Shown here one piece after another: positions 3,998 through 13,988 of a DNA stretch of 20,352 nucleotides (its first letter is position 1; every line of letters begins with the position of its first letter). The notes beneath the pieces were generated by a model. The model had not been told where the DNA came from. It searched no databases and was given only the letters and a program-made list of their open reading frames with translations. The position numbers were made by a program, and so were the translations under genes. This DNA is from a virus (taxonomy: Duplodnaviria > Heunggongvirae > Uroviricota > Caudoviricetes). The stretch lies in IMG/VR virus record IMGVR_UViG_3300010367_000170. The stretch is one strand, 5' to 3'.

Positions 3998-5620
3998 CTA
4001 GTTGTCGATCTCCCACGGCCAACCGGCGTCACGGCCCCGCGACAACAAGTCCATCATCGTGAACATGGCGTCGGAGAAACCGCCGATCTCGAACCGGTTC
4101 GGGTCGGAGGTGTTGATGGACGTGGACGCGTAGCCGGAGGTGTTGATACCGAAGACCGGAACGTCCCTCGGAACCGAGTTCGACACCGACGCCCCGCCCC
4201 AGCCCGACGACAGGTGCGTCTGCATGTCGGAGATGATCACCACGCGCTTGTGGATCGTCTCACGGAACGTCGCCCGCACCGCCTCCACCGTCTTCGTGCC
4301 GTGACCCACCGTGCCGACCTTCGCGCAGAAGCTGTCGATCTGCTTCAACGCCGACCCGCCCTTGACCAGGTTGTGCGGGAACACCACGTTGCCGTAGCCG
4401 TCACCGGCGAAGCCGTACAGCTCCACGTCGTTGCCGCGCATCGCCAACGCCACACCGAACAGCGCGCCGACGTCCACGTGCCGCACCTTCGACTTCTCCG
4501 ACACCGTGTCCAACATCGAACCGGAAGTGTCCACCAGCACCAGCGTCGAACCGGAGAACTCCGGCAGGTTCCCGCACGCCGCATCCAAGCCCTTGTCCAA
4601 CGCGTGGCCCCACCGCAACGACGGAGCAGCCCGGTACGCCGACAACAGCCGGTACGGGAACACCCGCGCCTTCCGGATGTCCTCCGGGTTGGACAACTTC
4701 TCGCACACCTGCGCCGCGACCTTGTCCGAGACCTTGGCCTCATCAAAGTTGCGCAGGTTCCGCATCAGCGCGAACGCGCCCATGGACGGGATGATCGCCT
4801 CCCACGCCTTCGCGTCCATCGGACCCTGAAGCCACCCGGCCAGCGACTCCCACGTCATACCAGCCTCAGCCAGGCGCTCGGAGCCGTCGGCGGACAGCAA
4901 CACCTTCCGGCGCTCACCGACCGGCATCTCCATCAGAGCCTGCCGCGCCGCCAGCGTCTTGTTGCCCTCCGGCAGACGCACATCCGACCGGTTGTGACGC
5001 CGGTCCAGCGCGTAGCGGAACAGCTCCCCCTGCCACGGCTTGTCATCCGCCGGAGACGGGTGCACCAAGTCGATGACGTCACCGAACCGGTAGGCGCTGT
5101 TGTCGGAGTCGTACTTCAGCAGGTTCTTGCCGTTGTACAGCCGCCGAACAGCGTCGGCCACACCGCGCTTCACCGGCTTCGGCAGCTTCCGGCCGTAGTG
5201 AGACGTCCAGTACGACAACAACTCACCCGGCTCGTCAGCGCGCTGGCAGGCGGCGTCGATGAGGGTGCGCCCAGCCGGGGTCTGCTTCGCGTCCAGGCGC
5301 GCCTTCACCGCCTCGCAGGCGGCCACGACAGACGCCGAGCGCATGTTGGCCTTGGTGCGCAGCCACAGCACAAACCCGTGCATCCAGCCGTAGTCCTCCA
5401 CGGCGACCTTACGAACCAGGTCCCGGAAACGGGCATCACGGGCAGACGCCGACTCGTAAAACGTGGACTCGCCCACCATGTTGGTGACAGCCAGCAGCAG
5501 CAGAGCTGACTGGTCGTCGTGGCTCCAAGCCAAACCGCCCTCGTGGGTGCGGGCCGGTGCGGTCGTGGCCATCGGGGACTTCACCGACGGCTGCGCACCC
5601 TTGGTGTTGAACTTGCTCAT
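3998..5620 (-). CDS. rsr: Ro60-related RNA-binding protein (TROVE plus vWA domain), 540 aa
   Basis: Hallmarks THEGG, LAVTNMVGESTFYESA, ALMRNLRNF, vWA MIDAS LVDTSGSM and IISDMQT. ATG 5620 with SD AAGGAGG. Confidence 0.93.
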   Translation of the reverse strand: MSKFNTKGAQPSVKSPMATTAPARTHEGGLAWSHDDQSALLLLAVTNMVGESTFYESASARDARFRDLVRKVAVEDYGWMHGFVLWLRTKANMRSASVVAACEAVKARLDAKQTPAGRTLIDAACQRADEPGELLSYWTSHYGRKLPKPVKRGVADAVRRLYNGKNLLKYDSDNSAYRFGDVIDLVHPSPADDKPWQGELFRYALDRRHNRSDVRLPEGNKTLAARQALMEMPVGERRKVLLSADGSERLAEAGMTWESLAGWLQGPMDAKAWEAIIPSMGAFALMRNLRNFDEAKVSDKVAAQVCEKLSNPEDIRKARVFPYRLLSAYRAAPSLRWGHALDKGLDAACGNLPEFSGSTLVLVDTSGSMLDTVSEKSKVRHVDVGALFGVALAMRGNDVELYGFAGDGYGNVVFPHNLVKGGSALKQIDSFCAKVGTVGHGTKTVEAVRATFRETIHKRVVIISDMQTHLSSGWGGASVSNSVPRDVPVFGINTSGYASTSINTSDPNRFEIGGFSDAMFTMMDLLSRGRDAGWPWEIDN

Positions 5621-5668
5621 TACAGTTCCCTCCTTGTTTGTGGCGGAGGGAGAAGGCAACGCGGTGAC

Positions 5669-5792: not shown

Positions 5793-5932
5793 CCTCCCGA
5801 GATCCAAACGGCTGCGGTCAGCTAGGGCAGGATTCGAACCTGCGACCTTTCCGCTCGCGCGGAACGCTCTACCAACTGAGCTACCCGGATGGTTGTTGTA
5901 TCCGAAGTAACCGCTGCCTACGCACCGGGAGG
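5793..5932 (-). ncRNA. Y-RNA-like gene B (D arm, GNRA-capped arm, T arm in normal tRNA order)
   Basis: Same terminal motifs GGUGCG and UGGAUCUC. Inner GCUC-AGUUGGUA-GAGC, UUCCGC-GCGA-GCGGAA, GCAGG-UUCGAAU-CCUGC. Confidence 0.8.
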
Positions 5933-5943
5933 TGCGTGTTTAG

Positions 5944-6033
5944 TTATTCGCCCTTGCAGCAGCCGCACTCGCCGCAGTGCATCGCCAGGCCGCAGTTGCA
6001 GCCCCAAGGACGCCATCTGATCCAGAACTTCAT
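5944..6033 (-). CDS. 29-aa Cys-rich micropeptide MKFWIRWRPWGCNCGLAMHCGECGCCKGE
   Basis: ATG preceded by GGAGGAGAAGC; 6 Cys; fits exactly in the gap between Y RNAs B and C. Confidence 0.5.
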   Translation of the reverse strand: MKFWIRWRPWGCNCGLAMHCGECGCCKGE

Positions 6034-6060
6034 GCTTCTCCTCCAGGCTTCGAACTGAAA

Positions 6061-6167
6061 TCCCCTGAGATCAAGTCGGTGACGGGGTGCCCAGCCAATG
6101 GGCCACCCCCGCGAGGTGGGGGTGTTTGGATTCGAACCGAAGTATCCGTCACTGTCGCACCAGGGGA
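6061..6167 (-). ncRNA. Y-RNA-like gene C (YrlA-like; short T-arm, closed acceptor-like hairpin, D arm)
   Basis: UCCCCUG-GUGCG / UGAUCUC-AGGGGA ends; GG-UUCGAAU-CC; CACCCCC/GGGGGUG hairpin; GCCC-AUUGGCU-GGGC. Confidence 0.8.
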
Positions 6168-6186
6168 AAGCTTGTTCGGTTGTGGC

Positions 6187-6328
6187 GGTCCTGAGTTCCA
6201 AGACGGCTTTGGGCTTACGTCCGTTGCTCTACCAGATTGAGCCACCGTCCGAGGGTGCCGGACGGGCTGGATTTGAACCAGCAACCCACGGCTCCAAGAG
6301 AAGTATCCAATGCCTACGCACCAGGACC
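6187..6328 (-). ncRNA. Y-RNA-like gene D (YrlA-like circularly permuted tRNA module)
   Basis: T arm GCUGG-UUCAAAU-CCAGC, then 7-bp acceptor-like CCGUCCG/CGGACGG closed by a loop, then UG-GCUC-AAUCUGGUA-GAGC D arm; terminal motifs conserved. Confidence 0.85.
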
Positions 6329-6340
6329 GCAAAGGTTTTG

Positions 6341-6482
6341 GCCTGCCAGAGATCCAAACGACTTGGGTAACGTTGACGTGCTGTCCATTACACCACCACC
6401 CCACGAGTGGGGTGGGCCGGAATCGAACCGGCACCTCCGGATCCGTATTCCGAAGTAACCCATGTCTGCGCACCTGGCAGGC
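6341..6482 (-). ncRNA. Y-RNA-like gene E (YrlA-like circularly permuted tRNA module)
   Basis: GCCUGCCAG-GUGCG / UGGAUCUC-UGGCAGGC ends; GCCGG-UUCGAUU-CCGGC; CCACCCC/GGGGUGG closed acceptor-like stem; D-like GUGU-AAUGGAC-AGCAC. Confidence 0.85.
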
Positions 6483-6550
6483 GCGTTGTTGTTCACCCCT
6501 GAACGGGGTGCGCCGTCTCCCGGATCGGGGGGGACGGGAGACGACGCGGG

Positions 6551-6625
6551 TAGCGGCGACGGGATTTGAACCCGCGATCTTCAGATTGAAAGTCTGACGA
6601 GCTTTCCAGACAGCTCCACACCGCC
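6551..6625 (-). tRNA. tRNA-Glu (TTC)
   Basis: Full cloverleaf; TCAGA-CT-TTC-AA-TCTGA; T loop TTCAAAT. Confidence 0.93.
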
Positions 6626-6754
6626 TTGCATGTCGGGTACCGAATCTCCGACTCCCTGGCCAACGAACGACTCCCTACCCTCACGGGCAGCCAGGCCCTT
6701 ACGCAGCTCTGCCGGTCCCTCCAACACCCGTGAACCCTTGTTGGAGGGACCAGG

Positions 6755-6828
6755 AGCCGTCACCGAGGTTCGAACTCGGAACACGTTCTTACCAAGAACG
6801 TAGCGTTGCCAGTTACGCCCACAACGGC
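6755..6828 (-). tRNA. tRNA-Thr (GGT)
   Basis: Cloverleaf; CGTTC-TT-GGT-AA-GAACG. Confidence 0.9.
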
Positions 6829-6968
6829 TTGTCCCGCGCACCCAACTGAACCGACTCCCCGTAGGGGTCTGCTCCACACCTGAACTTGTGCTCACCGGCG
6901 CGGGACGGTGAGCGTGCGCCTCAGACTGGTTCAGATGGCAACTTCTTACCGGCTGTTCCGCTCGCCGG

Positions 6969-7103
6969 TCACGGCTTCTTGCTCTTCTGCTGGCCTACCT
7001 TGCTCCAGGACACACCGGGGACCGGCATGCCACCCGGGAACAGGTGCGGGAACTTCCGTGCCCGCGCCAACATCTTCTTGCGCTTGTTCCGGCTGTAACT
7101 CAC
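6969..7103 (-). CDS. 44-aa highly basic small protein MSYSRNKRKKMLARARKFPHLFPGGMPVPGVSWSKVGQQKSKKP
   Basis: GTG preceded by AGGAGGAGGAGAA; lies in a tRNA-free gap; K/R-rich with no acidic residues. Confidence 0.6.
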   Translation of the reverse strand: MSYSRNKRKKMLARARKFPHLFPGGMPVPGVSWSKVGQQKSKKP

Positions 7104-7124
7104 TTCTCCTCCTCCTCTGTAACC

Positions 7125-7214
7125 GGGCTGGATCCCCGCAGGAGTCGAACCTGCCCTAGGAGTTGACGCAGGTTATCGGCCTACGCCGCTGGCCCTTCAG
7201 CTAAGGTCCAGCCC
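7125..7214 (-). ncRNA. Atypical tRNA-like element (CC-GAT-AA loop, long variable region, extended bulged acceptor helix)
   Basis: T arm GCAGG-TTCGACT-CCTGC; GTAGG-CCGATAA-CCTGC; ends GGGCTGGACCTT/GGGGATCCAGCCC pair over about 12 bp. Confidence 0.5.
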
Positions 7215-7216
7215 TG

Positions 7217-7288
7217 TACCGCACGCGAGACTTGAACTCGCAGAACCTGCTTGGAAGGCAGGCGGGTTGCCAATTACCCCAGTGCGGC
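7217..7288 (-). tRNA. tRNA-Gly (TCC)
   Basis: Cloverleaf; CCTGC-CT-TCC-AA-GCAGG. Confidence 0.92.
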
Positions 7289-7389
7289 ACACCCACCGTC
7301 CCCAGTTTCTGTGGGGGCGGGTGGTGCAGCAGACTTTGCGCTCAGGCGTCTACCGGTCCTGCTTCTTCCCCTCCGAGGAGGGACGCGCG

Positions 7390-7464
7390 TAGTCCGTACG
7401 GGATTTGAACCCGTGGTCTTCACCTTGAGAGGGTGACGAGATAGGCCAGCTACTCCAACGGACC
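7390..7464 (-). tRNA. tRNA-Glu (CTC)
   Basis: Cloverleaf; TCACC-CT-CTC-AA-GGTGA. Confidence 0.92.
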
Positions 7465-7469
7465 TCGCG

Positions 7470-7542
7470 CTGCGTCGGCAGGCTTCGAACCTGCATTGTC
7501 CAAGTTCAAAGCCTGGGGTCCTGCCAGTTAGACGACGACGCA
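7470..7542 (-). tRNA. tRNA-Gln (TTG)
   Basis: U1-A72, G73; CCAGG-CT-TTG-AA-CTTGG. Confidence 0.92.
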
Positions 7543-7547
7543 TAGCG

Positions 7548-7621
7548 CTGCACTGTCAGGATTCGAACCTGAAACCACCCGATTCAGAGCCGGGAGCGCT
7601 GCCAGATTGCGCCACAGTGCA
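7548..7621 (-). tRNA. tRNA-Gln (CTG)
   Basis: U1-A72, G73; CCCGG-CT-CTG-AA-TCGGG. Confidence 0.92.
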
Positions 7622-7897
7622 TTGCGCGGACTTCGGTCTGAGCCGTCCGCTGAGCCCGATGGACTTCACGCGTAGCCGTCTGCCCTGGGGTCTGGCTTGG
7701 CCGTATACCCCATTAGGCGACCTGTTCAACATACCGGCCCGTACGTCCGGCACCTCCGGGGATAACCCTCCAGGCGCTTCCCAGCCTCCCGGTCTTAGCG
7801 CGACCGGTAGTAACAGCTCCACGGCTCAAATCCCTGTCAGGATCCCCTGTCATAAGCGTGCAGGACTCTGGCCTCGACATGGGCCAGGCTGCGCGCG

Positions 7898-7978
7898 TGG
7901 GAGTGGTAGGTGTCGAACCTACAATGCTCGAAAGCGCGGGCTTTACAGGCCCGCTGGCAGACCGCTGCACTCACTCCC
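7898..7978 (-). tRNA. tRNA-Tyr (GTA)
   Basis: CGGGC-CT-GTA-AA-GCCCG; long variable arm GCT-TTCG-AGC. Confidence 0.9.
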
Positions 7979-8020
7979 GAAACCCCTTACGGGGCCGGTG
8001 TTGACGTTCCTCGCTAGGTG

Positions 8021-8099
8021 AAGCCCGGAGCGGAGTCGAACCGCTATCCACGCGCTTTGCAGGCGCGCTCTAGATACCGTCTAGATGAGGACCCGGGCA
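8021..8099 (-). tRNA. tRNA-Cys (GCA), atypical D arm
   Basis: CGCGC-CT-GCA-AA-GCGCG, U73. D region contains TCTAGA-CGGTA-TCTAGA; 1:72 mismatch. Confidence 0.75.
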
Positions 8100-8190
8100 A
8101 CGGAGCCGTCCGCCCGGTCCAGCCACGGTCAGCCTCCGAGGGGGTGGAGGCAATATCGGCAGCTTGCGCATCGGACCGGTACGGACGACG

Positions 8191-8262
8191 TGCCTCCGGT
8201 GGGATTCGAACCCACGTCGAACCACTTAGAAGGTGGTCTCCCATCCTCTGGGCGACGGAGGC
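8191..8262 (-). tRNA. tRNA-Arg (TCT)
   Basis: Cloverleaf; ACCAC-CT-TCT-AA-GTGGT. Confidence 0.9.
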
Positions 8263-8403
8263 GAGCGGGTCCACCGTCCTCAGATCCCCCGCCGTCGCTA
8301 GGGATTGTTCGATTCGCGGTGGACCCTAAAGTCCAGGAGGGGGAGGTACGTGGGCCGCTGGCCACGGTAGGCCACGCTTCTCGGCCAGTCCCTTCTGGAC
8401 TTG

Positions 8404-8477
8404 CGCTCGTGACGGGACTTGAACCCGTGACCTCCTGATTGACAATCAGGTGCCCTAACCGTCTGGGCCACACGAGC
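8404..8477 (-). tRNA. tRNA-Asp (GTC)
   Basis: CCTGA-TT-GTC-AA-TCAGG; G73. Confidence 0.93.
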
Positions 8478-8509
8478 CGGACGCAGGCGAACCTGCGCTT
8501 TTGTTCTAC

Positions 8510-8632
8510 CTAGTTCCCCTTCGTGCAGGTGTGCGGTCCCTTCCTGAGGCACACGATGTGCGAGTGGACAGCGCAAGCGAAGCACCCGCACGAACACATA
8601 CAACGCCTAGCCAGCAACAACAGATGTTTCAT
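8510..8632 (-). CDS. 40-aa Cys/His-rich micropeptide MKHLLLLARRCMCSCGCFACAVHSHIVCLRKGPHTCTKGN
   Basis: ATG preceded by GGAGGGAGGAGAAG; 7 Cys and 4 His; fills the gap between tRNA-Lys and tRNA-Asp and is followed by a UUCG hairpin. Confidence 0.5.
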   Translation of the reverse strand: MKHLLLLARRCMCSCGCFACAVHSHIVCLRKGPHTCTKGN

Positions 8633-8647
8633 CTTCTCCTCCCTCCG

Positions 8648-8719
8648 TGCGCCGCGAGGGTGTCGAACCCCCGACCCCTCCGTTAAGAGCGGAGTGCTCT
8701 ACCGTTGAGCTAGCGGCGC
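8648..8719 (-). tRNA. tRNA-Lys (CTT)
   Basis: CTCCG-CT-CTT-AA-CGGAG. Confidence 0.93.
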
Positions 8720-8832
8720 AGGTGAAGCAGGGGCCTGAGTTGAACAGGCCAGCGGGCCGTCGCCCTTTTCTCCTAAGGAACCCACCAAGGGTGCGCGGGA
8801 ATCGAACCCGCCACTGCCGGTTCCCTGCCTCG

Positions 8833-8904
8833 CAGGTCGCCAGGGACTTGAACCCTGTTCCACGGATTAAAAGTCCGTTACATAGCCATACATGCTCGCG
8901 ACCC
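8833..8904 (-). tRNA. tRNA-Lys (TTT)
   Basis: ACGGA-CT-TTT-AA-TCCGT; G73. Confidence 0.88.
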
Positions 8905-9038
8905 ATAAGCCCCACCATTCCGCAGTCAAGAGGAAGGCGGGGAACATTGGGGCCAGGCCAGGGTTCAACCCTTCCCGGAAGCACGGGGTTCGTACGGCCC
9001 AGCCAGGAACAGCCCGGATCAGGGGCTGCTGCTCCAAG

Positions 9039-9113
9039 TAGCGGGGACAGGATTTGAACCTGCGATCTCTGGATTATGAGCCCAGCGGGGACACCGAACT
9101 CCCCCACCCCGCG
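9039..9113 (-). tRNA. tRNA-Met (CAT), initiator-like
   Basis: CGCGGGG 5' end with C1:U72 mismatch; CTGGG-CT-CAT-AA-TCCAG. Confidence 0.88.
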
Positions 9114-9135
9114 TCGGCGCGGCGAACCGCGCTCG

Positions 9136-9207
9136 TGTCCTCGACAGGAATTGAACCTGCGCGCCCCGGGCTTCAACCGGATGCTCTTCCAACTGAGCTA
9201 CAAGGAC
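9136..9207 (-). tRNA. tRNA-Phe (GAA)
   Basis: TCCGG-TT-GAA-GC-CCGGG. Confidence 0.9.
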
Positions 9208-9359
9208 GTTGCCCGCCTACTGAATCAGTGCCGTACCCAAAGGACGTGTCCGGAGATCTCCTCCGGCTCTACAACAGCGGGCCGCATACAACGCACTCCA
9301 AAGGTATGCGAGCTTTGGCCGTCGTCAACGCCCCATCGGTGAGGCGTTGAGCGTGTGCG

Positions 9360-9430
9360 AGCCCTTGGCGGGAATCGAACCCACGTTGCCTCCCTGGCAA
9401 GGAGGTGTCTTGCCGCTAGACGACAAGGGC
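9360..9430 (-). tRNA. tRNA-Gly (GCC)
   Basis: CCTCC-TT-GCC-AG-GGAGG; U73. Confidence 0.93.
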
Positions 9431-9540
9431 GAACATCGTCCGGTAGGTGGTCCCGCTACCGCCACAAACACGGAAACGCGTACGGGCCGTGTTCCGCCAC
9501 CCCTTACCGCCCGTTCAGACCGGACGATGAATTTACTGCG

Positions 9541-9614
9541 AGCCCTGAGCCGGGGTCGAACCGGCGACCTCCGTTTTACGAGAACGGCGCTACTTCCAAC
9601 TGAGCCACCAGGGC
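9541..9614 (-). tRNA. tRNA-Thr (CGT)
   Basis: CCGTT-CT-CGT-AA-AACGG. Confidence 0.92.
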
Positions 9615-9699
9615 GCGGCAGCTGTTGCACAGGGGAACTGCCTACCCCTTCACCACCCCCATCACGGCCTGTCCTCCAACGGCCGTGACGGTTAGTGCG

Positions 9700-9771
9700 T
9701 AGCCCCACCGGGATTCGAACCCAGGCCTGCACCTTCGGAGGGTGCTGCGCTGTCCGCTGCGCTATGGGGCT
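9700..9771 (-). tRNA. tRNA-Arg (CCG)
   Basis: GCACC-CT-CCG-AA-GGTGC. Confidence 0.92.
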
Positions 9772-9908
9772 GTGTTGACCAACTCTCTTACAAGGTTAAG
9801 GCTCTGACTAGGCGCCATACAGCCTTGTAGAGAGGCGGGGGAGGCCACCCACCCTGATCCCGCATTGTCCGCAGCCCCTCGCCGGTCAAGGCTACTCACT
9901 GCGGCATG

Positions 9909-9981
9909 CTGTCCCAGCAGGGTTCGAACCTGCGACCTGAGGATTAACAATCCACTGCTCTGCCTACTGAGCTATAGGACA
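9909..9981 (-). tRNA. tRNA-Asn (GTT)
   Basis: GTGGA-TT-GTT-AA-TCCTC (one mismatch); G73. Confidence 0.9.
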
Positions 9982-10108
9982 ACGCCCCGCAAAGTTGCGC
10001 ACCCTCGCGGGGTTGTTGAGATGGGCGGGAACTGAACCAGCCTCTGAGCCTGCCGATTCGGGCGCCCCTAGTTCTCAGTTCTTAAGGGTCCGCTATTCCC
10101 ATCTCTCG

Positions 10109-10181
10109 TGCGTCTACAGGGACTCGAACCCCGAACCTGCTGGGTGTAGGCCAGCTGCTCTTCCAATTGAGCTACAGACGC
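10109..10181 (-). tRNA. tRNA-Val (TAC) with C33
   Basis: GCTGG-CC-TAC-AC-CCAGC; otherwise canonical cloverleaf. Confidence 0.85.
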
Positions 10182-10277
10182 TCCCGGGAGGGGGCAGCGC
10201 CGAACGCGCTGCCCTAGTCCTCCCTTGTAGGTATACCGGGCCTGGGGTATACCAGCCCAGGTGATCGACACTTGCCC

Positions 10278-10346
10278 GTGAGGCGGCTGGAATCGAACCA
10301 GCTTCGGGAGTCTTCGCGAAACCCTACGTAACCAACGTCCACCTCC
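10278..10346 (-). pseudogene. Degenerate tRNA-like element, TC-GCG-AA loop (Arg GCG-like)
   Basis: Perfect T arm GCTGG-TTCGATT-CCAGC; 6-bp acceptor; short D arm ACGT-TGGTT-ACGT; C33. Confidence 0.5.
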
Positions 10347-10400
10347 AGCGGGTAGCGAACCCGCCTTCACCGGGTTCAGGACGCGTTCCTGAGTACCGGC

Positions 10401-10476
10401 TGGTGTCCCCGGGAGGAATCGAACCTCCAACCTCCTGATTCGTAGTCAGGTGCCCTATCCGTTGGGCCACGGAGAC
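10401..10476 (-). tRNA. tRNA-Arg (ACG), CCA encoded
   Basis: CCTGA-CT-ACG-AA-TCAGG; ends A-CCA. Confidence 0.95.
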
Positions 10477-10635
10477 ATGACGATTATCGCAGGCCAGGAA
10501 CCGTCGCCCGGTAGTAGCGCAAGATCCATTTGCGCCCTGCTTGTCACGCACATTCGCAGCAAAATCAGGGGACACCCTGGGGTACTTGGGATAACCGGAG
10601 GTGTTGCTGCCCGGAGCGTGACCGCACCGTTCCCG

Positions 10636-10704
10636 TGGTCAGTGCGGGATTCGAACCCGCATCCAGTCACAAGTGGACCCGCTCAGCCGTTGAGCTACCT
10701 GACC
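10636..10704 (-). pseudogene. tRNA-like element with aberrant anticodon arm (GGTC-CACTTGT-GACT)
   Basis: Canonical D arm (GCTC-AACGGCT-GAGC) and T arm, 6/7 acceptor pairs; 4-bp anticodon stem, no U33. Confidence 0.6.
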
Positions 10705-10714
10705 CTGCTGTACG

Positions 10715-10786
10715 TGGAAATGAAGGGACTCGAACCCTTGACCCGACCGGCACATATCCGGCGCTCTGCCGCTGAGCTACATCCCC
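10715..10786 (-). tRNA. Non-canonical tRNA: Ala-type acceptor (G3:U70, A73) with AT-ATG-TG anticodon loop
   Basis: GGGGATG/CATTTCC-A acceptor; canonical D and T arms; CCGG-ATATGTG-CCGG. Confidence 0.65.
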
Positions 10787-10901
10787 TAGGTGGCCGGGCT
10801 GTACGGGACTTACCGGCCGTGCATGCTGCCGCTGACAGAAGCGTTCCCGTCTGGTTCCTGGCGTACCGGCAATCTAAGGCACCGACGTCCCGTCACCATT
10901 G

Positions 10902-10975
10902 TGCTCACAGAGGGATTTGAACCCTCACTTGCGGCGGTTTGAGCGCCGTGCCTCTGCCGATTGGGCTACGTGAGC
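10902..10975 (-). tRNA. tRNA-Leu (CAA), short variable loop
   Basis: CGGCG-CT-CAA-AC-CGCCG; variable region only CAAGT; A73. Confidence 0.9.
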
Positions 10976-11083
10976 TGGAAGCGCAGTCCCGTGCGGGAGG
11001 AGAAGTCACCGCACGGGACTACTTACTCCAAGACCTTTGCTGCCGCCGGAGGAAAGCCTGTAAGCCGACAGGTCTCGGAGTCG

Positions 11084-11157
11084 TTGCCACGGCTGGATTC
11101 GGACCAGCGACATACGCCTTATCAGAGCGCTGCTCTACCAGGCTGAGCTACGTGGCA
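11084..11157 (-). tRNA. tRNA-Ile (GAT)
   Basis: GCGCT-CT-GAT-AA-GGCGT; T-loop variant TCCGAAT. Confidence 0.88.
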
Positions 11158-11278
11158 TTGTCGGACGGCCTGCGCGAGGCAGGCCACCGACGTCTACGTT
11201 CATTTACATCATCGTCGCTGTTGAGTTCTCAAGGTTCCAGGAGCTTCGTGCCGACGTACAGCGCGCTCCAAACGTGCG

Positions 11279-11349
11279 CGTCCTTGAAGGGATTCGAACC
11301 CTCGCTTGCCCACCAGGAACTGGGCGCTCTACCGTTAAGCTACAAGGAC
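11279..11349 (-). tRNA. tRNA-like, probably Arg(CCT)-derived, with an irregular 8-nt anticodon loop
   Basis: Perfect acceptor GTCCTTG/CAAGGAC, D and T arms; CCCA-GTTCCTGG-TGGG. Confidence 0.55.
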
Positions 11350-11363
11350 ACCTTGTTCAGTTG

Positions 11364-11426
11364 TACGGGGACCGGAGTCGAACCGGAACCTCAGCCGTGC
11401 ACTGCTACTCTCCCACCCGGACCCGC
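11364..11426 (-). pseudogene. Highly degenerate tRNA-like remnant
   Basis: T arm CCGG-TTCGACT-CCGG and a partial acceptor GCGGG/CCCGT; D and anticodon arms are poor. Confidence 0.35.
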
Positions 11427-11524
11427 TTGGCAGGCCCGTTTTCCCCTCGCGGGGACACCCAACCAGTTCGGACCTGGCGGTTCCGGCGTTGAAACTCCAC
11501 GGGCCAACAGGGTCGTCGCCTTCG

Positions 11525-11580
11525 TGGACCCAGAGGGTTTCGAACCCTCCCACGCGCGTCAGCCCCCAGGGCTTGGGCCC
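11525..11580 (-). ncRNA. 56-nt mini-tRNA: full acceptor with G3:U70 and A73 plus T arm, no anticodon arm
   Basis: GGGCCCA/TGGGTCC-A; GAGGG-TTCGAAA-CCCTC; only one small hairpin (AGCCC-TGG-GGGCT) between them. Confidence 0.55.
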
Positions 11581-11611
11581 GTATTCAGTTGTTGGCTCCG
11601 TCCTACCGGAG

Positions 11612-11684
11612 GGTGATGTGCGGGAATCGAACCCGCTGCTGCCTGGATCACAACCAGGTCCCCGACCGGAGGGGCTACACCACC
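11612..11684 (-). tRNA. tRNA-His (GTG)
   Basis: G-1:C73 pair; CCTGG-TT-GTG-AT-CCAGG. Confidence 0.88.
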
Positions 11685-12541: not shown

Positions 12542-12719
12542 CTCCTTTGGGTGGCTCCACGCAACCGTGGATCTTGCGGTAATCGTTCAGGTCAGGGTTG
12601 GGATGCGCCTCGCCGCGCAACGAGTACTCGCACTCCTCGGACAGCTGCCGAGCCTGCTCCGGAGACAGACAAGACGGCCAGTCGCAGATACGGCACACCC
12701 GGAACTTAGGAGCCGTCAT
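12519..12719 (-). CDS. Small Cys-containing hypothetical protein (66 aa)
   Basis: CRIC..PSC..C; overlaps both neighbouring genes, as typical of phage operons. Confidence 0.5.
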   Translation of the reverse strand: MTAPKFRVCRICDWPSCLSPEQARQLSEECEYSLRGEAHPNPDLNDYRKIHGCVEPPKGGDDVGDF

Positions 12720-12936
12720 ACTCCTCGTCCTGCTGCCGGTGGCGAGTCATCGACTCCACCATCTCCATGAAGTCTTTCCACGGCATGCCCACCAGCTCTA
12801 CCGTGCCGCCCGTCTCCAAGTCCGGGTCATGTGCGATGAAGGTGACGGTCCCTCCAGGCCGGTACTCGGTGATGAGGTGTTCGGTGTCCTCTTCGGCTTC
12901 GTCATACGCGTACACGTACTCCCAGGTACGGCCCAT
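12706..12936 (-). CDS. Acidic hypothetical protein (76 aa, MGRTWEY...)
   Basis: ATG overlaps the upstream TGA; SD GGAGGAG. Confidence 0.65.
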   Translation of the reverse strand: MGRTWEYVYAYDEAEEDTEHLITEYRPGGTVTFIAHDPDLETGGTVELVGMPWKDFMEMVESMTRHRQQDEEYDGS

Positions 12937-13151
12937 CACTGCTCCTCCGGGAAGACTATGGTGACGACTGCCGATGCAACCAGGCGTTCGACCTCTGCCA
13001 TGAGGTCGAACCATTGGTCGTCGGTCAGCCAGTTGTTCTCTGGAATCTCGGCCAGCGTGTCATTGGCGGGGAACGGCGCGTTGAGACGGTTGAGGATCAC
13101 CAGCCGAGCTAGCTGCTGAACGCGCAGCGGAGCAATATCAGAAGGCGCCAT
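12936..13151 (-). CDS. Hypothetical protein (71 aa, MAPSDIAPL...)
   Basis: Start chosen at the ATG overlapping the end of the HAD gene; coupled to the downstream gene. Confidence 0.55.
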   Translation of the reverse strand: MAPSDIAPLRVQQLARLVILNRLNAPFPANDTLAEIPENNWLTDDQWFDLMAEVERLVASAVVTIVFPEEQ

Positions 13152-13758
13152 CAGCGACCTGGAAGCAAGCCAGTCCCAGTTTCCGCCACAGGTACACGCA
13201 GCGGTCACGGTCGTCCAGGACCAGGTGCGGATGCCAGAGGTCCCGGACGTGTTTGTCGAAGAGTTCCAGCTTCACGATGTCGTCACCGCGCCGGTCCCCT
13301 CCGGGGCGCATGTGCAGCTCGTCATACGGAACCTGGAACTTCTTCAGCCACCGCTCCGTGTGGGGCCGGTACTCCTCTTGGCGGCCGGACAGCAGGATGA
13401 TCCGCTGGCCGTCTCTGCGGAACAAGTCCAGGGCGTAGACGACCTGCTTGTACTCGGTGTCGGTTTCGACCTTGTCGAAGTCGTACGGGCCACGGTTGGT
13501 GTGCAGGGCCAGGGTGCCGTCGATGTCGCAGACGATAGCTGGGGGCTGCCCGTTGAACTCGTACGTCCTGGCGAACTCCACATCGACGGCGAGGCCGGTG
13601 AACCTGTGGCTGGGCTCTGTGGCGATGATGGCGCTGCGGGCGTCGTTCTCCACGTCCGTGATGCGACGGGAGACGCCGGGGAGCAGGTGCCTGCCGGTCT
13701 GAACCTTCCAGGCCCACTCCACGCCGTCGGAGTCCACGGTGACGGTGTAGTCGCTCAC
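13138..13758 (-). CDS. HAD-family phosphatase of the Pnkp 3'-phosphatase type with a short N-terminal extra domain
   Basis: DIDGTL (DxDxT), LLSGR, LHMRP..DRRGDDIVKLEL, DDRDRCVYLWRKLGL: motif order as in the C-terminal domain of T4-type polynucleotide kinase/phosphatase. No P-loop. GTG overlaps the upstream TGA. Confidence 0.85.
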   Translation of the reverse strand: MSDYTVTVDSDGVEWAWKVQTGRHLLPGVSRRITDVENDARSAIIATEPSHRFTGLAVDVEFARTYEFNGQPPAIVCDIDGTLALHTNRGPYDFDKVETDTEYKQVVYALDLFRRDGQRIILLSGRQEEYRPHTERWLKKFQVPYDELHMRPGGDRRGDDIVKLELFDKHVRDLWHPHLVLDDRDRCVYLWRKLGLACFQVADGAF

Positions 13759-13988
13759 TTGTACATCCATGTCCACTCGGAGGCGTTTGGATCCCACTCC
13801 ACGTCCAGGCTGTAACACTCTCCGTTGAAGGCCCACTCCACGGAATAGGACGCGCCTTCTTCATCGACGTCGGGGCAGACGGCGAAGCCGAGAGAGTGTG
13901 AGCGGTTCAGCAGCGCCGCAAGGTCTTTGGCGACAAGAGCGGCGCTTACGGCAACGTGCTGCTGAAAGTTCTCTCTGATATCGCTCAT
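13755..13988 (-). CDS. Hypothetical protein (77 aa, MSDIRENF...)
   Basis: ATGA overlap upstream and GTGA overlap downstream. Confidence 0.6.
   Translation of the reverse strand: MSDIRENFQQHVAVSAALVAKDLAALLNRSHSLGFAVCPDVDEEGASYSVEWAFNGECYSLDVEWDPNASEWTWMYK

What the first reader, a model, noticed from the sequence alone, without database searches (positions are those of the whole stretch)
10715..10786. tRNA with alanine acceptor identity but a His-type (AUG) anticodon position
Seen: G1-C72, G2-C71, G3:U70, A73 with canonical D and T arms, and loop AU-AUG-UG. Established: G3:U70 is the major AlaRS determinant and AlaRS ignores the anticodon. Inference: it may be charged with Ala and either misread CAU codons or donate Ala non-ribosomally. 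No canonical tRNA-Ala is present in the array, and a normal His tRNA is. The 4-bp stem and U37 may prevent decoding.
Basis: partly seen in the sequence, partly recalled or inferred. Interest (0 to 1): 0.7.

Follow-up and report, generated by a model that had tools for sequence, protein, structure and literature searches.

The report
Alanine-type phage tRNA, remodelled anticodon arm
An uncultured soil phage carries a well-conserved transfer RNA that keeps every mark for being loaded with alanine, but its anticodon arm is shortened and its "histidine" triplet differs in a sister phage, so it is a selected offshoot of tRNA-alanine of unproven use, not a histidine decoder and not a dead gene.

Summary
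Window 10715-10786 (minus strand) is a real tRNA gene (Rfam 47.7 bits). It has G1-C72, G2-C71, G3:U70, also G4:U69, and A73, with canonical D and T arms. Its anticodon arm is 2 nt short: stem CCGG/CCGG, loop AUAUGUG.

New here: it descends from tRNA-Ala. The closest relative has a normal tRNA-Ala(GGC) at the same array position. The odd form is conserved in two further phage lineages at 90% or more, with a compensatory acceptor-stem change. One of those lineages reads AAG instead of AUG, so the "His anticodon" is nominal. CAU codons in the phage's genes sit at conserved His positions (8 of 9, none Ala), so there is no reassignment. The T stem is predicted to bind EF-Tu tightly, unlike known non-ribosomal donor tRNAs.

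The gene belongs to a set of three odd-armed tRNA types that replace one another at one array hot spot. Each lies upstream of a conserved 72-98-nt RNA element, directly in most lineages.

Function is unproven. My odds: non-decoding alanine-accepting tRNA mimic about 0.35, weak Ala missense tRNA about 0.3. The scan's earlier notes on this window (e1-5371601, e1-5371597) flagged damaged anticodon arms and Y-like RNAs.

The parts
10715..10786 (-). The tRNA gene ('type A'), 72 nt to the discriminator. It has a tRNA-Ala acceptor identity and a remodelled anticodon arm.
   Evidence: ARAGORN; Rfam 47.7 bits; identical copy in another sample (L041); orthologues in L037-L039 and L046.
10780..10786 (-). 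Acceptor stem 5' strand GGGGAUG, pairing with 10716-10722 (CAUUUCC). Gives G3:U70 and G4:U69. The discriminator A73 is at 10715.
   Evidence: Read from sequence. All 7 pairs are kept in 3 lineages, with 6:67 compensatory and 4:69 changed on one side.
10747..10761 (-). Anticodon arm, 15 nt. Stem CCGG (10758-10761) pairs with CCGG (10747-10750). Loop AUAUGUG is at 10751-10757. The nominal anticodon AUG is at 10753-10755.
   Evidence: The stem is invariant and the loop is R-U-A-W-G-U-G across three lineages. The flanking 26/44 positions are G/U here but A/A in L037 and L046, so no conserved fifth pair exists.
10740..10746 (-). Enlarged variable region UCGGGUC (7 nt).
10723..10739 (-). T arm AAGGG-UUCGAGU-CCCUU. 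Pairs 49-65 AU, 50-64 AU and 51-63 GC.
   Evidence: Invariant in three lineages. Calculated EF-Tu affinity about -10.6 kcal/mol from the published table.
10636..10704 (-). Neighbouring odd tRNA ('type C'), 10 nt downstream. It has U3-A70, A73, a 4-bp stem GGUC/GACU and loop CACUUGU with A at position 33.
   Evidence: The orthologue L047:12436-12504 has an identical arm and pair-restoring acceptor changes.
10542..10633 (-). Conserved RNA element E downstream of the odd tRNAs. Its 5' part is ..CGGUGCGGUCACGCUCC.. and its 3' part is ..AAUGUGCGUGAC. The stem GUCACGC/GCGUGAC closes it.
   Evidence: Found after every type A, B or C tRNA in six lineages, and absent where they are absent.
11611..11683 (-). 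Ordinary tRNA-His(GUG) of the same array.
5816..11683 (-). The tRNA array (27 ARAGORN calls, all on one strand), with interspersed Y-RNA-like and other tRNA-like elements.
3998..5659 (-). Ro60/Rsr gene (TROVE + vWA) at the downstream end of the array.
   Evidence: Pfam; 88.5% identical to the L035 orthologue.
13138..13770 (-). PNKP-type phosphatase gene upstream of the array. It was used to fetch the syntenic relatives.
   Evidence: Pfam and PHROG; homologue list.

Best explanation
Two tiers. Tier 1 (about 0.85). This is a functional, selected phage gene that descends from the array's tRNA-Ala. It keeps the full alanine acceptor identity and a normal D/T elbow. Its anticodon arm has been rebuilt as a 4-bp CCGG stem, a loop R-U-A-W-G-U-G and an enlarged variable region. 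It is not a tRNA-His, not a pseudogene and not a CAU reassigner. It is one of three odd-armed tRNA types (A, B, C) that replace each other at one hot spot of related arrays, always upstream of a conserved 72-98-nt RNA element E. Tier 2 (about 0.35, inferred). It is transcribed with the array, cut out by RNase P and a 3' endonuclease, given CCA, and alanylated by the host AlaRS through G3:U70. It does not serve as an ordinary decoder. It acts instead as an alanine-accepting tRNA look-alike. Its conserved, non-canonical arm would be the part read by a partner, such as a host enzyme that attacks or modifies anticodon arms, or the phage's own Ro60/Y-RNA and RNA-repair machinery encoded around the array. 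The confidence value given (0.4) is for the whole statement including tier 2.
For: Real tRNA. Ala ancestry: the best full-length phage matches are annotated tRNA-Ala. The closest relative L035 (Ro60 88.5%, Tet/JBP 93.7% identical) has tRNA-Ala(GGC) with the same 5' strand GGGGAUG at the same place, Leu(CAA)-X-Y-Arg(ACG)-Val. Selection: orthologues occur in L037-L039 and L046, whose PNKP proteins are only 71% and 56% identical. Identity between the window and L037 copies is 0.90, against 0.57-0.92 for same-anticodon tRNAs, while the flanks do not align. All 20 pairs are kept, with one compensatory change. Not a His decoder: AAG replaces AUG in L046, and the CAU codon test is negative. Against ordinary decoding: the 4-bp stem is invariant, whereas reviews describe 5 bp as constant and 6 bp as the known exception, and position 32 is a purine. 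Scaffold reuse in forms that cannot decode normally: the same Ala scaffold occurs without any anticodon arm (L037:9466-9522) and with a 27-nt arm (L050:12392-12473). Type C shares the 4-bp design without Ala identity. Context: a phage region with Ro60, several Y-like tRNA mimics, a PNKP phosphatase, and an RNA ligase in a relative.
Against: No partner for the arm is identified. The loop resembles no standard host anticodon loop, so it is a poor mimic of an intact tRNA target. Several retained features are what a decoder needs: G3:U70 and A73, an EF-Tu-competent T stem, a 7-nt loop with U33, and conserved A34. Only three distinct type A sequences exist, so covariation statistics are weak (167 of 500 shuffles reach the observed score). 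Maturation and charging are not shown. RNA-library contigs cover only part of the gene and could be DNA.
Confidence: 0.4

Rival explanations
1. Attenuated alanine missense tRNA ('tRNA-AlaX'). It would be charged by AlaRS, carried by EF-Tu, and read CAU in this phage at low efficiency (CUU in the L046 form, CUA/CUG in type B). This inserts Ala at codons that are rare in GC-rich genomes. The short stem, purine 32 and U37 would act as brakes.
For: G3:U70 and A73 are kept in types A and B while other acceptor pairs change with compensation. The T stem is calculated at -10.6 kcal/mol, inside or tighter than the tRNA-Ala range. The loop is 7 nt with U33, and its U37-G38 frame is shared with the canonical Ala(GGC) of L035. 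A34 is conserved while position 35 varies, as in the tRNA-ProX family of actinomycetes. That family also carries A33, which is seen here in types B and C. Ashbya mt-tRNA-Ala(UAG) is a precedent. CAU, CUU and CUA make up only about 0.3%, 0.5% and 0.1% of codons in the phage genes sampled.
Against: No functional decoder with a 4-bp anticodon stem is described in the reviews read. CAU sits at conserved His positions of the phage's own proteins. No codon avoidance is seen in carriers. The armless and long-armed versions of the same scaffold cannot work this way.
Confidence: 0.3
2. Processing handle or 5' module for element E. The tRNA fold mainly supplies RNase P and 3'-endonuclease cuts that define the ends of the downstream RNA, or it stays joined to E as a composite tRNA-like/Y-like RNA.
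For: E lies within about 5 nt of the last odd tRNA in five lineages, and behind a ~120-nt tRNA-like insert in the sixth (L035). Three unrelated tRNA types occupy the place, and lineages without odd tRNAs lack E. E begins with the GGUGCG word shared by the Y-like RNAs next to Ro60.
Against: Any ordinary tRNA would serve this purpose. It does not explain why the odd anticodon arms are the best-conserved parts or why G3:U70 is kept. In the window, type A is separated from E by type C.
Confidence: 0.1
3. Dedicated non-ribosomal alanine donor, for example for a Fem-type, aminoacyl-lipid or other tRNA-dependent transferase.
For: It has alanine identity with an arm unfit for decoding. Non-proteinogenic tRNA-Gly of Staphylococcus is a precedent.
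Against: Those donors have weakened EF-Tu T stems (-9.5 against a class mean of -10.8), whereas this one is calculated as tight. No tRNA-dependent transferase was seen among the genes of the window or of the syntenic loci. Whole phage genomes could not be searched.
Confidence: 0.08
4. Decaying tRNA-Ala pseudogene with a chance deletion in the anticodon stem.
For: The arm is 2 nt short. The window lacks another tRNA-Ala. Folding energy is not distinctive.
Against: The same arm occurs in three lineages. Changes in stems are all pair-preserving. The gene is among the best-conserved tRNAs between the window and L037, and its flanks are unalignable.
Confidence: 0.07

Closest known systems
tRNA-ProX family (tRNA-ProA/N/T) of Streptomyces and Kitasatospora (review PMC11415595)
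   Same: These are natural actinomycete-associated tRNAs that join the acceptor identity of one amino acid to anticodons of others. A34 is conserved and the anticodons vary among members. They have unusual loop positions, including A33, which is seen here in types B and C.
   Different: ProX tRNAs come with a dedicated ProRSx and are shown to mistranslate in E. coli. No 4-bp anticodon stem is mentioned for them in the review section read. The present RNA has Ala identity, needs no special synthetase, is phage-encoded, has a 4-bp stem, and no misincorporation has been shown.
Ashbya gossypii mitochondrial tRNA-Ala(UAG), and allo-tRNAs carrying G3:U70 (review PMC7609411)
   Same: They combine G3:U70 with a non-alanine anticodon. 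UAG and the CUU/CUA targets coincide with type B and with the L046 form of type A.
   Different: Those are efficient decoders, and in Ashbya the codons are truly reassigned. Here the codon test shows no reassignment, and the arm is non-canonical.
Engineered tRNA-Ala anticodon variants (PMC10543346)
   Same: They rest on the same principle: AlaRS ignores the anticodon, so a tRNA-Ala with another anticodon inserts Ala.
   Different: They are laboratory constructs on a normal 5-bp arm.
Non-proteinogenic tRNA-Gly of Staphylococcus aureus (PMC7826273; PMC3239215)
   Same: It is a tRNA paralogue set aside from translation.
   Different: It has a weakened EF-Tu-binding T stem and a normal anticodon arm. 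Here the reverse holds.
YrlA-type Y RNAs and the tmRNA tRNA-like domain
   Same: Both are tRNA mimics that are not decoders. The tmRNA domain is alanylated through G3:U70. Y RNAs are encoded beside Ro60, as in this window.
   Different: The present RNA is a complete cloverleaf with free ends. It has no Ro-binding stem around it (Rfam YrlA 17.8 bits against 69). No tag reading frame or tmRNA call was found.
Phage tRNAs with anticodon-loop changes that evade anticodon nucleases (PMC10264068)
   Same: These are actinophage tRNA arrays in which loop positions differ from the norm, in a setting of host tRNA nucleases.
   Different: Those keep a matching anticodon and identity and remain decoders. 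Here identity and triplet disagree and the stem is shortened.

Membership tests
tRNA (Rfam RF00005) | Cloverleaf scoring above the curated threshold | tested here: met
   47.7 bits against 29; ARAGORN call.
tRNA-Ala (identity set) | G3:U70 wobble pair | tested here: met
   Read. Kept in all three type A lineages.
tRNA-Ala (identity set) | A73 discriminator with G1-C72 and G2-C71 | tested here: met
tRNA-Ala (identity set) | Anticodon NGC reading GCN | tested here: not met
   The loop is AUAUGUG, with nominal anticodon AUG.
tRNA-Ala (descent) | Orthology or synteny with a bona fide tRNA-Ala | tested here: met
   L035 has Ala(GGC) in the same slot with the same 5' strand. It is the best in-locus match at 0.73. 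The best phage database matches are tRNA-Ala.
tRNA-Ala (function) | Alanylation by AlaRS | not testable with these tools
   Inferred from established AlaRS recognition of G3:U70 (cited in PMC11415595).
tRNA-His | G-1 paired to C73, with a GUG anticodon | tested here: not met
   Position -1 is A and the discriminator is A. The true tRNA-His of the array has both features.
Canonical elongator decoder | 5-bp anticodon stem | tested here: not met
   The stem is 4 bp. Positions 26/44 are G/U here but A/A in L037 and L046. Reviews give 5 bp as constant.
Canonical elongator decoder | 7-nt loop with U33, pyrimidine 32 and purine 37 | tested here: inconclusive
   The 7-nt loop and U33 are met. Position 32 is A or G, and position 37 is U. 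U37 also occurs in the canonical Ala(GGC) of L035.
Dual-identity (mistranslating) tRNAs | Identity elements of one amino acid joined to the anticodon of another | tested here: met
   This holds at sequence level only.
Dual-identity (mistranslating) tRNAs | Misincorporation at the target codon | tested here: inconclusive
   No reassignment signal: CAU aligns to His 8 of 9 and 5 of 8, never to Ala. No codon avoidance. Low-level misreading cannot be seen this way.
Non-proteinogenic donor tRNAs | T stem weakened for EF-Tu | tested here: not met
   AU/AU/GC gives about -10.6 kcal/mol by the published additive table, against tRNA-Ala class means of -10.0 to -10.3.
Non-proteinogenic donor tRNAs | A tRNA-dependent transferase partner | not tested
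   No whole genome is held. None was seen in about 20 kb around the arrays.
YrlA / Y RNA | tRNA-like domain enclosed by a Ro60-binding terminal stem | tested here: not met
   The RNA has its own closed 7-bp acceptor stem. The Rfam YrlA match is only 17.8 bits against 69 and spans two tRNAs.
tmRNA | Alanine tRNA-like domain plus a tag-encoding region | tested here: not met
   ARAGORN finds no tmRNA in the window. No conserved reading frame exists in element E (read from alignment A7).
tRNA pseudogene | Unconstrained change, with broken pairs across relatives | tested here: not met
   100% of the 60 pair cells are standard. Conservation is 0.90 against a range of 0.57-0.92.

The most novel reading that the evidence does not exclude
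These actinophages carry a swappable cassette of alanine-charged missense tRNAs. The alanine scaffold is constant and the anticodon arm is exchangeable: AUG, AAG or UAG. The cassette would be aimed at A/U-ending codons that are rare in the phage's own GC-rich genes, so expressing it would corrupt proteins rich in such codons far more than the phage's own proteins. Whether host defence or rival-element genes are enriched in these codons is my speculation and was not tested. The shortened stem and odd loop positions would set the dose.
Probability: 0.12. Interest if true: 0.9.

Novelty: new variant of a known kind. Interest (0 to 1): 0.6.

Why it matters
Natural tRNAs whose amino-acid identity and anticodon disagree are rare. 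The few characterised cases (tRNA-ProX, CUG-clade yeasts, Ashbya mitochondria) have shaped ideas about how the genetic code tolerates ambiguity. In the papers I could search I found no virus-encoded, conserved tRNA with alanine identity and a non-alanine loop on a one-pair-short anticodon helix.

Either outcome would be informative. If the RNA decodes, it is a phage-borne mistranslation device and shows that a 4-bp anticodon stem can work on the ribosome. If it does not decode, it adds a complete, chargeable cloverleaf to the growing list of phage tRNA mimics encoded beside Ro60, Y RNAs and RNA-repair enzymes. In that case it points to the anticodon arm as an exchangeable recognition module.

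Both readings are directly testable with a short transcript and a reporter.

Tried and rejected
1. Near-identical DNA searches. Phage records gave nothing useful and plasmid records gave only an unrelated ~90-nt tRNA match. No whole genome is held.

2. Exact and degenerate patterns of types A and B in IMG/VR gave 0 hits. The type A pattern was not found in 401 Streptomycetaceae genomes searched, nor in 68 further Ro60-bearing viral loci.

3. The PNKP peptide scan of IMG/VR found nothing. The exact-protein look-up with my own start codon failed. Relatives came instead from the homologue list.

4. Expression. Eleven metatranscriptome runs hold parts of the stretch. When laid, only one RNA-library contig touches the gene (10741-10934), and it may be DNA. 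No ends, strand or variants can be read. This is no evidence either way.

5. Alternative folds were rejected for weak pairing or lack of conservation. They included placing GUG at positions 34-36, an 11-nt loop, or a fifth stem pair G:U. The fifth pair is A/A in L037 and L046.

6. The idea that the target's 3' half and the neighbour's 5' half form one permuted tRNA-like domain (weak YrlA hit) was rejected. The two acceptor strands do not pair with each other, and each tRNA closes its own stem.

7. I looked by eye for complementarity or covariation between the odd loops and element E. Nothing covaried.

8. Element E as a tmRNA-like coding piece was rejected because it has no conserved frame.

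9. Codon avoidance in carrier phages shows no signal, but the counts are small.

10. The sigma-70 promoter and terminator scan found nothing above shuffles.

Full report
**What is at the coordinates.** On the minus strand, 10786 to 10715 is a 72-nt cloverleaf. ARAGORN calls it tRNA-His(atg). Rfam's tRNA model gives 47.7 bits against a threshold of 29.

Reading the sequence:
- The acceptor stem is GGGGAUG/CAUUUCC. This gives G1-C72, G2-C71, G3:U70 and a second wobble, G4:U69, with discriminator A73.
- U8 A9, the D arm and the T arm are canonical.
- The anticodon arm is CCGG-AUAUGUG-CCGG. In the Rfam alignment only 7 nt stand where the model has 9 positions, so the arm is two nucleotides short.
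- The variable region is enlarged to 7 nt.
- CCA is not encoded, as for most genes of this array.

The window has no tRNA with an Ala anticodon. It does have an ordinary tRNA-His(GUG) with the extra first G opposite C73.

**Setting.** The gene lies in a one-strand array of 27 ARAGORN tRNA calls (5816-11683). The array is flanked by a Ro60/TROVE gene, a PNKP-type phosphatase, and a Tet/JBP plus amino acid:DNA transferase cluster. Several Y-RNA-like elements are interspersed. No whole genome is held for the window. Earlier notes of this scan call the source an uncultured soil phage, and near-identical DNA occurs in soil metagenome runs of several studies.

**Descent from tRNA-Ala.** Three lines of evidence point the same way:
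- The best full-length matches among deposited phages are annotated tRNA-Ala (77%).
- Relatives fetched through PNKP homologues are syntenic, running PNKP, array, Ro60.
- The closest relative, L035 (Ro60 88.5% and Tet/JBP 93.7% identical), has the order Leu(CAA) - tRNA-Ala(GGC) - odd tRNA - Arg(ACG) - Val. The window has Leu(CAA) - target - odd tRNA - Arg(ACG) - Val.

The L035 Ala(GGC) has the same 5' strand, GGGGAUG. Its loop, C-U-GGC-U-G, shares U33, U37 and G38 with the target's A-U-AUG-U-G. So U37 is inherited, not a lesion.

**The odd form is conserved.** An identical copy occurs in another sample (L041). Orthologues occur in L037-L039 and in L046, whose PNKP proteins are only 71% and 56% identical to the window's.

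The three distinct sequences differ at 8 of 72 columns:
- 4:69 is G:U or A:U.
- 6:67 is U-A or C-G, which is compensatory.
- Positions 26, 44 and 45 vary.
- Loop position 32 is A or G.
- Loop position 35 is U or A.

All 20 stem pairs are standard in all three sequences. Three sequences give little statistical power, however: 167 of 500 shuffles reach the observed score. Window-to-L037 identity is 0.90, while same-anticodon tRNAs of the two arrays range from 0.57 to 0.92. The flanks do not align. A decaying pseudogene is therefore unlikely.

Positions 26/44 are G/U in the window but A/A elsewhere, so the stem is truly 4 bp.

**The "His anticodon" is nominal.** L046 reads AAG where the window and L037 read AUG. 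HisRS identity (G-1:C73) is absent.

I tested reassignment directly. In 13 real genes, the window's CAT codons (9 of 80 His codons) align to His in L035 in 8 of 9 cases, and in L042 in 5 of 8. They never align to Ala. L035 and L042 both lack this tRNA. CAT is not avoided in carriers: its share of His codons is 0.12 and 0.08, against 0.06-0.18 elsewhere. Low-level misreading cannot be excluded by such tests.

**EF-Tu.** I applied the published additive table for T-stem pairs 49-65, 50-64 and 51-63 (PMC3239215). The invariant AU/AU/GC of type A gives about -10.6 kcal/mol. This is at the tight end of the tRNA-Ala class means (-10.0 to -10.3). It is unlike the weakened non-proteinogenic tRNA-Gly of Staphylococcus (-9.5 against -10.8). 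This argues against a donor that hides from EF-Tu. It is compatible either with inheritance from tRNA-Ala or with continued delivery to the ribosome.

**A cassette of odd-armed tRNAs.** Two further families turn up at the same hot spot.
- Type B (L035:13036-13108, L043:13115-13186) also has G3:U70 and A73. It has a 5-bp stem and loop UAUAGGA, with A at position 33 and nominal anticodon UAG. Between the two lineages four acceptor pairs change with compensation, while G3:U70 and the whole anticodon arm stay identical.
- Type C is the target's neighbour (10636-10704). It has U3-A70, a 4-bp stem and loop CACUUGU with A33. In L047 it recurs with an identical arm and pair-restoring acceptor changes.

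The slot holds the following in each lineage:

| Lineage | Slot content |
|---|---|
| Window | A + C |
| L035 | Ala(GGC) + B |
| L037 | A |
| L046 | Ala(GGC) + A |
| L043 | B |
| L047 | C |
| L042 / L051 | nothing |

In all six carrier lineages a conserved 72-98-nt element E follows, and it is absent from the lineages without odd tRNAs. In five lineages E lies within about 5 nt of the last odd tRNA. In L035 a ~120-nt tRNA-like insert separates type B from E. E starts ..CGGUGCGGUCACGCUCC.. and ends ..AAUGUGCGUGAC, closed by the invariant stem GUCACGC/GCGUGAC. E shares its GGUGCG start with the Y-like RNAs next to Ro60, but I could not show that it is a Y RNA.

The same Ala scaffold also occurs in two other forms. 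One has no anticodon arm at all (L037:9466-9522, G3:U70, A73). The other has a 27-nt arm (L050:12392-12473).

**How it most likely works.**

Shown:
- It is a selected tRNA-Ala derivative with an intact alanine identity set and elbow.
- It has a conserved non-canonical arm.
- It is a member of a swappable set linked to element E.
- It does not reassign CAU.

Inferred from established knowledge: AlaRS recognises G3:U70 and ignores the anticodon (cited in PMC11415595). From this I infer maturation and alanylation.

Beyond that, two readings compete.

I give a slight edge (0.35) to a non-decoding, alanine-accepting tRNA look-alike whose arm is read by a partner. The reasons:
- No decoder with a 4-bp stem is described in the reviews read.
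- Position 32 is a purine.
- The triplet is not conserved.
- Type C shares the short-arm design without Ala identity.
- The scaffold exists in armless and long-armed forms.
- The surrounding region is devoted to tRNA mimics and RNA repair.

The rival (0.3) is a braked Ala missense tRNA, analogous to the A33/A34 tRNA-ProX family of actinomycetes and to Ashbya mt-tRNA-Ala(UAG). It is favoured by the retained identity set, the tight EF-Tu stem, the 7-nt U33 loop and the conserved A34.

Lesser rivals are a processing handle for E (0.1), a non-ribosomal Ala donor (0.08) and a pseudogene (0.07).

**Comparison and novelty.** The RNA is a tRNA by Rfam's test and carries the tRNA-Ala identity set. It fails the anticodon criterion for tRNA-Ala and every criterion for tRNA-His. 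It works, at most, like the dual-identity tRNAs. It is not a member of tRNA-ProX, YrlA or tmRNA.

I found no description of such a phage family in the papers searched. I found no copy in INPHARED phages, IMG/VR, or the 401 Streptomycetaceae genomes searched. I rate it a new variant of a known kind, with interest 0.6.

Noticed in passing
window 10636-10704 (-); L047:12436-12504: 'Type C' odd tRNA next to the target. It has a 4-bp anticodon stem and loop CACUUGU with A33, nominal anticodon CUU. It is conserved in a distant lineage with pair-restoring acceptor changes. It may be a Lys-type tRNA altered against anticodon nucleases.
   Followed up: partly
window 10542-10633 (-); L037:9692-9785; L046:3955-4051; L043:13188-13274; L047:12507-12604; L035:13231-13302: Conserved 72-98-nt element E with the invariant stem GUCACGC/GCGUGAC and a GGUGCG start. 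It occurs once per phage, always downstream of an odd tRNA. In the window and L047 it contains a hairpin followed by a U-run. Its identity is unknown.
   Followed up: partly
L035:13036-13108; L043:13115-13186: 'Type B' tRNA with G3:U70, A73, C8, A33 and nominal anticodon UAG. Its anticodon arm is identical between lineages while four acceptor pairs covary. It is a cleaner candidate for an Ala-at-Leu-codon tRNA than the target.
   Followed up: partly
L037:9466-9522 (also L038, L039): tRNA-Ala scaffold (G3:U70, A73, normal D and T arms) with no anticodon arm. A 7-nt connector replaces it. It lies about 95 nt upstream of the type A gene.
   Followed up: partly
L050:12392-12473; L043:12167-12243; L037:10837-10909: Further variants on similar Ala-like scaffolds. 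One has a 27-nt anticodon arm carrying GAU (discriminator U). One has G3-C70 and an 8-nt loop (UCAA). One is a tRNA-Ala(UGC) with a 6-bp anticodon stem and an odd D arm.
   Followed up: no
window 11278-11349 (-): tRNA with an 8-nt anticodon loop (four-base anticodon UCCU by ARAGORN) and no nucleotide at position 26. Rfam gives 53 bits.
   Followed up: no
window 5816-5891 (-); L035:18136-18213; L042:17135-17210; L051:9763-9838: tRNA-like call directly upstream of Ro60. Its body is conserved but its 'anticodon' hairpin varies (2-nt CG here, GA or GGU elsewhere). It is probably the tRNA-like module of a Y RNA. Bacterial Ro60 loci show a similar-400 nt upstream.
   Followed up: no
window about 10240-10340 (-), T loop at 10299; L035:13110-13230; L043 about 12690-12790: Another conserved tRNA-like element with a good T arm that ARAGORN does not call. 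In L035 it sits between type B and element E.
   Followed up: no
window 10901-10975 (-) and the Leu genes of related arrays: The array's tRNA-Leu genes are 74-77 nt long and lack the long variable arm that bacterial tRNA-Leu normally has.
   Followed up: no
L004:15288-15913: ARAGORN predicts a permuted tmRNA (tag AARQVLAEL) inside the tRNA array of a distant Ro60-bearing phage contig.
   Followed up: no
window 13138-13770 (-): The PNKP homologue has only the phosphatase domain (210 aa). Many bacterial relatives of about 300 aa also carry the kinase domain. A relative encodes an RNA ligase just beyond Ro60.
   Followed up: no
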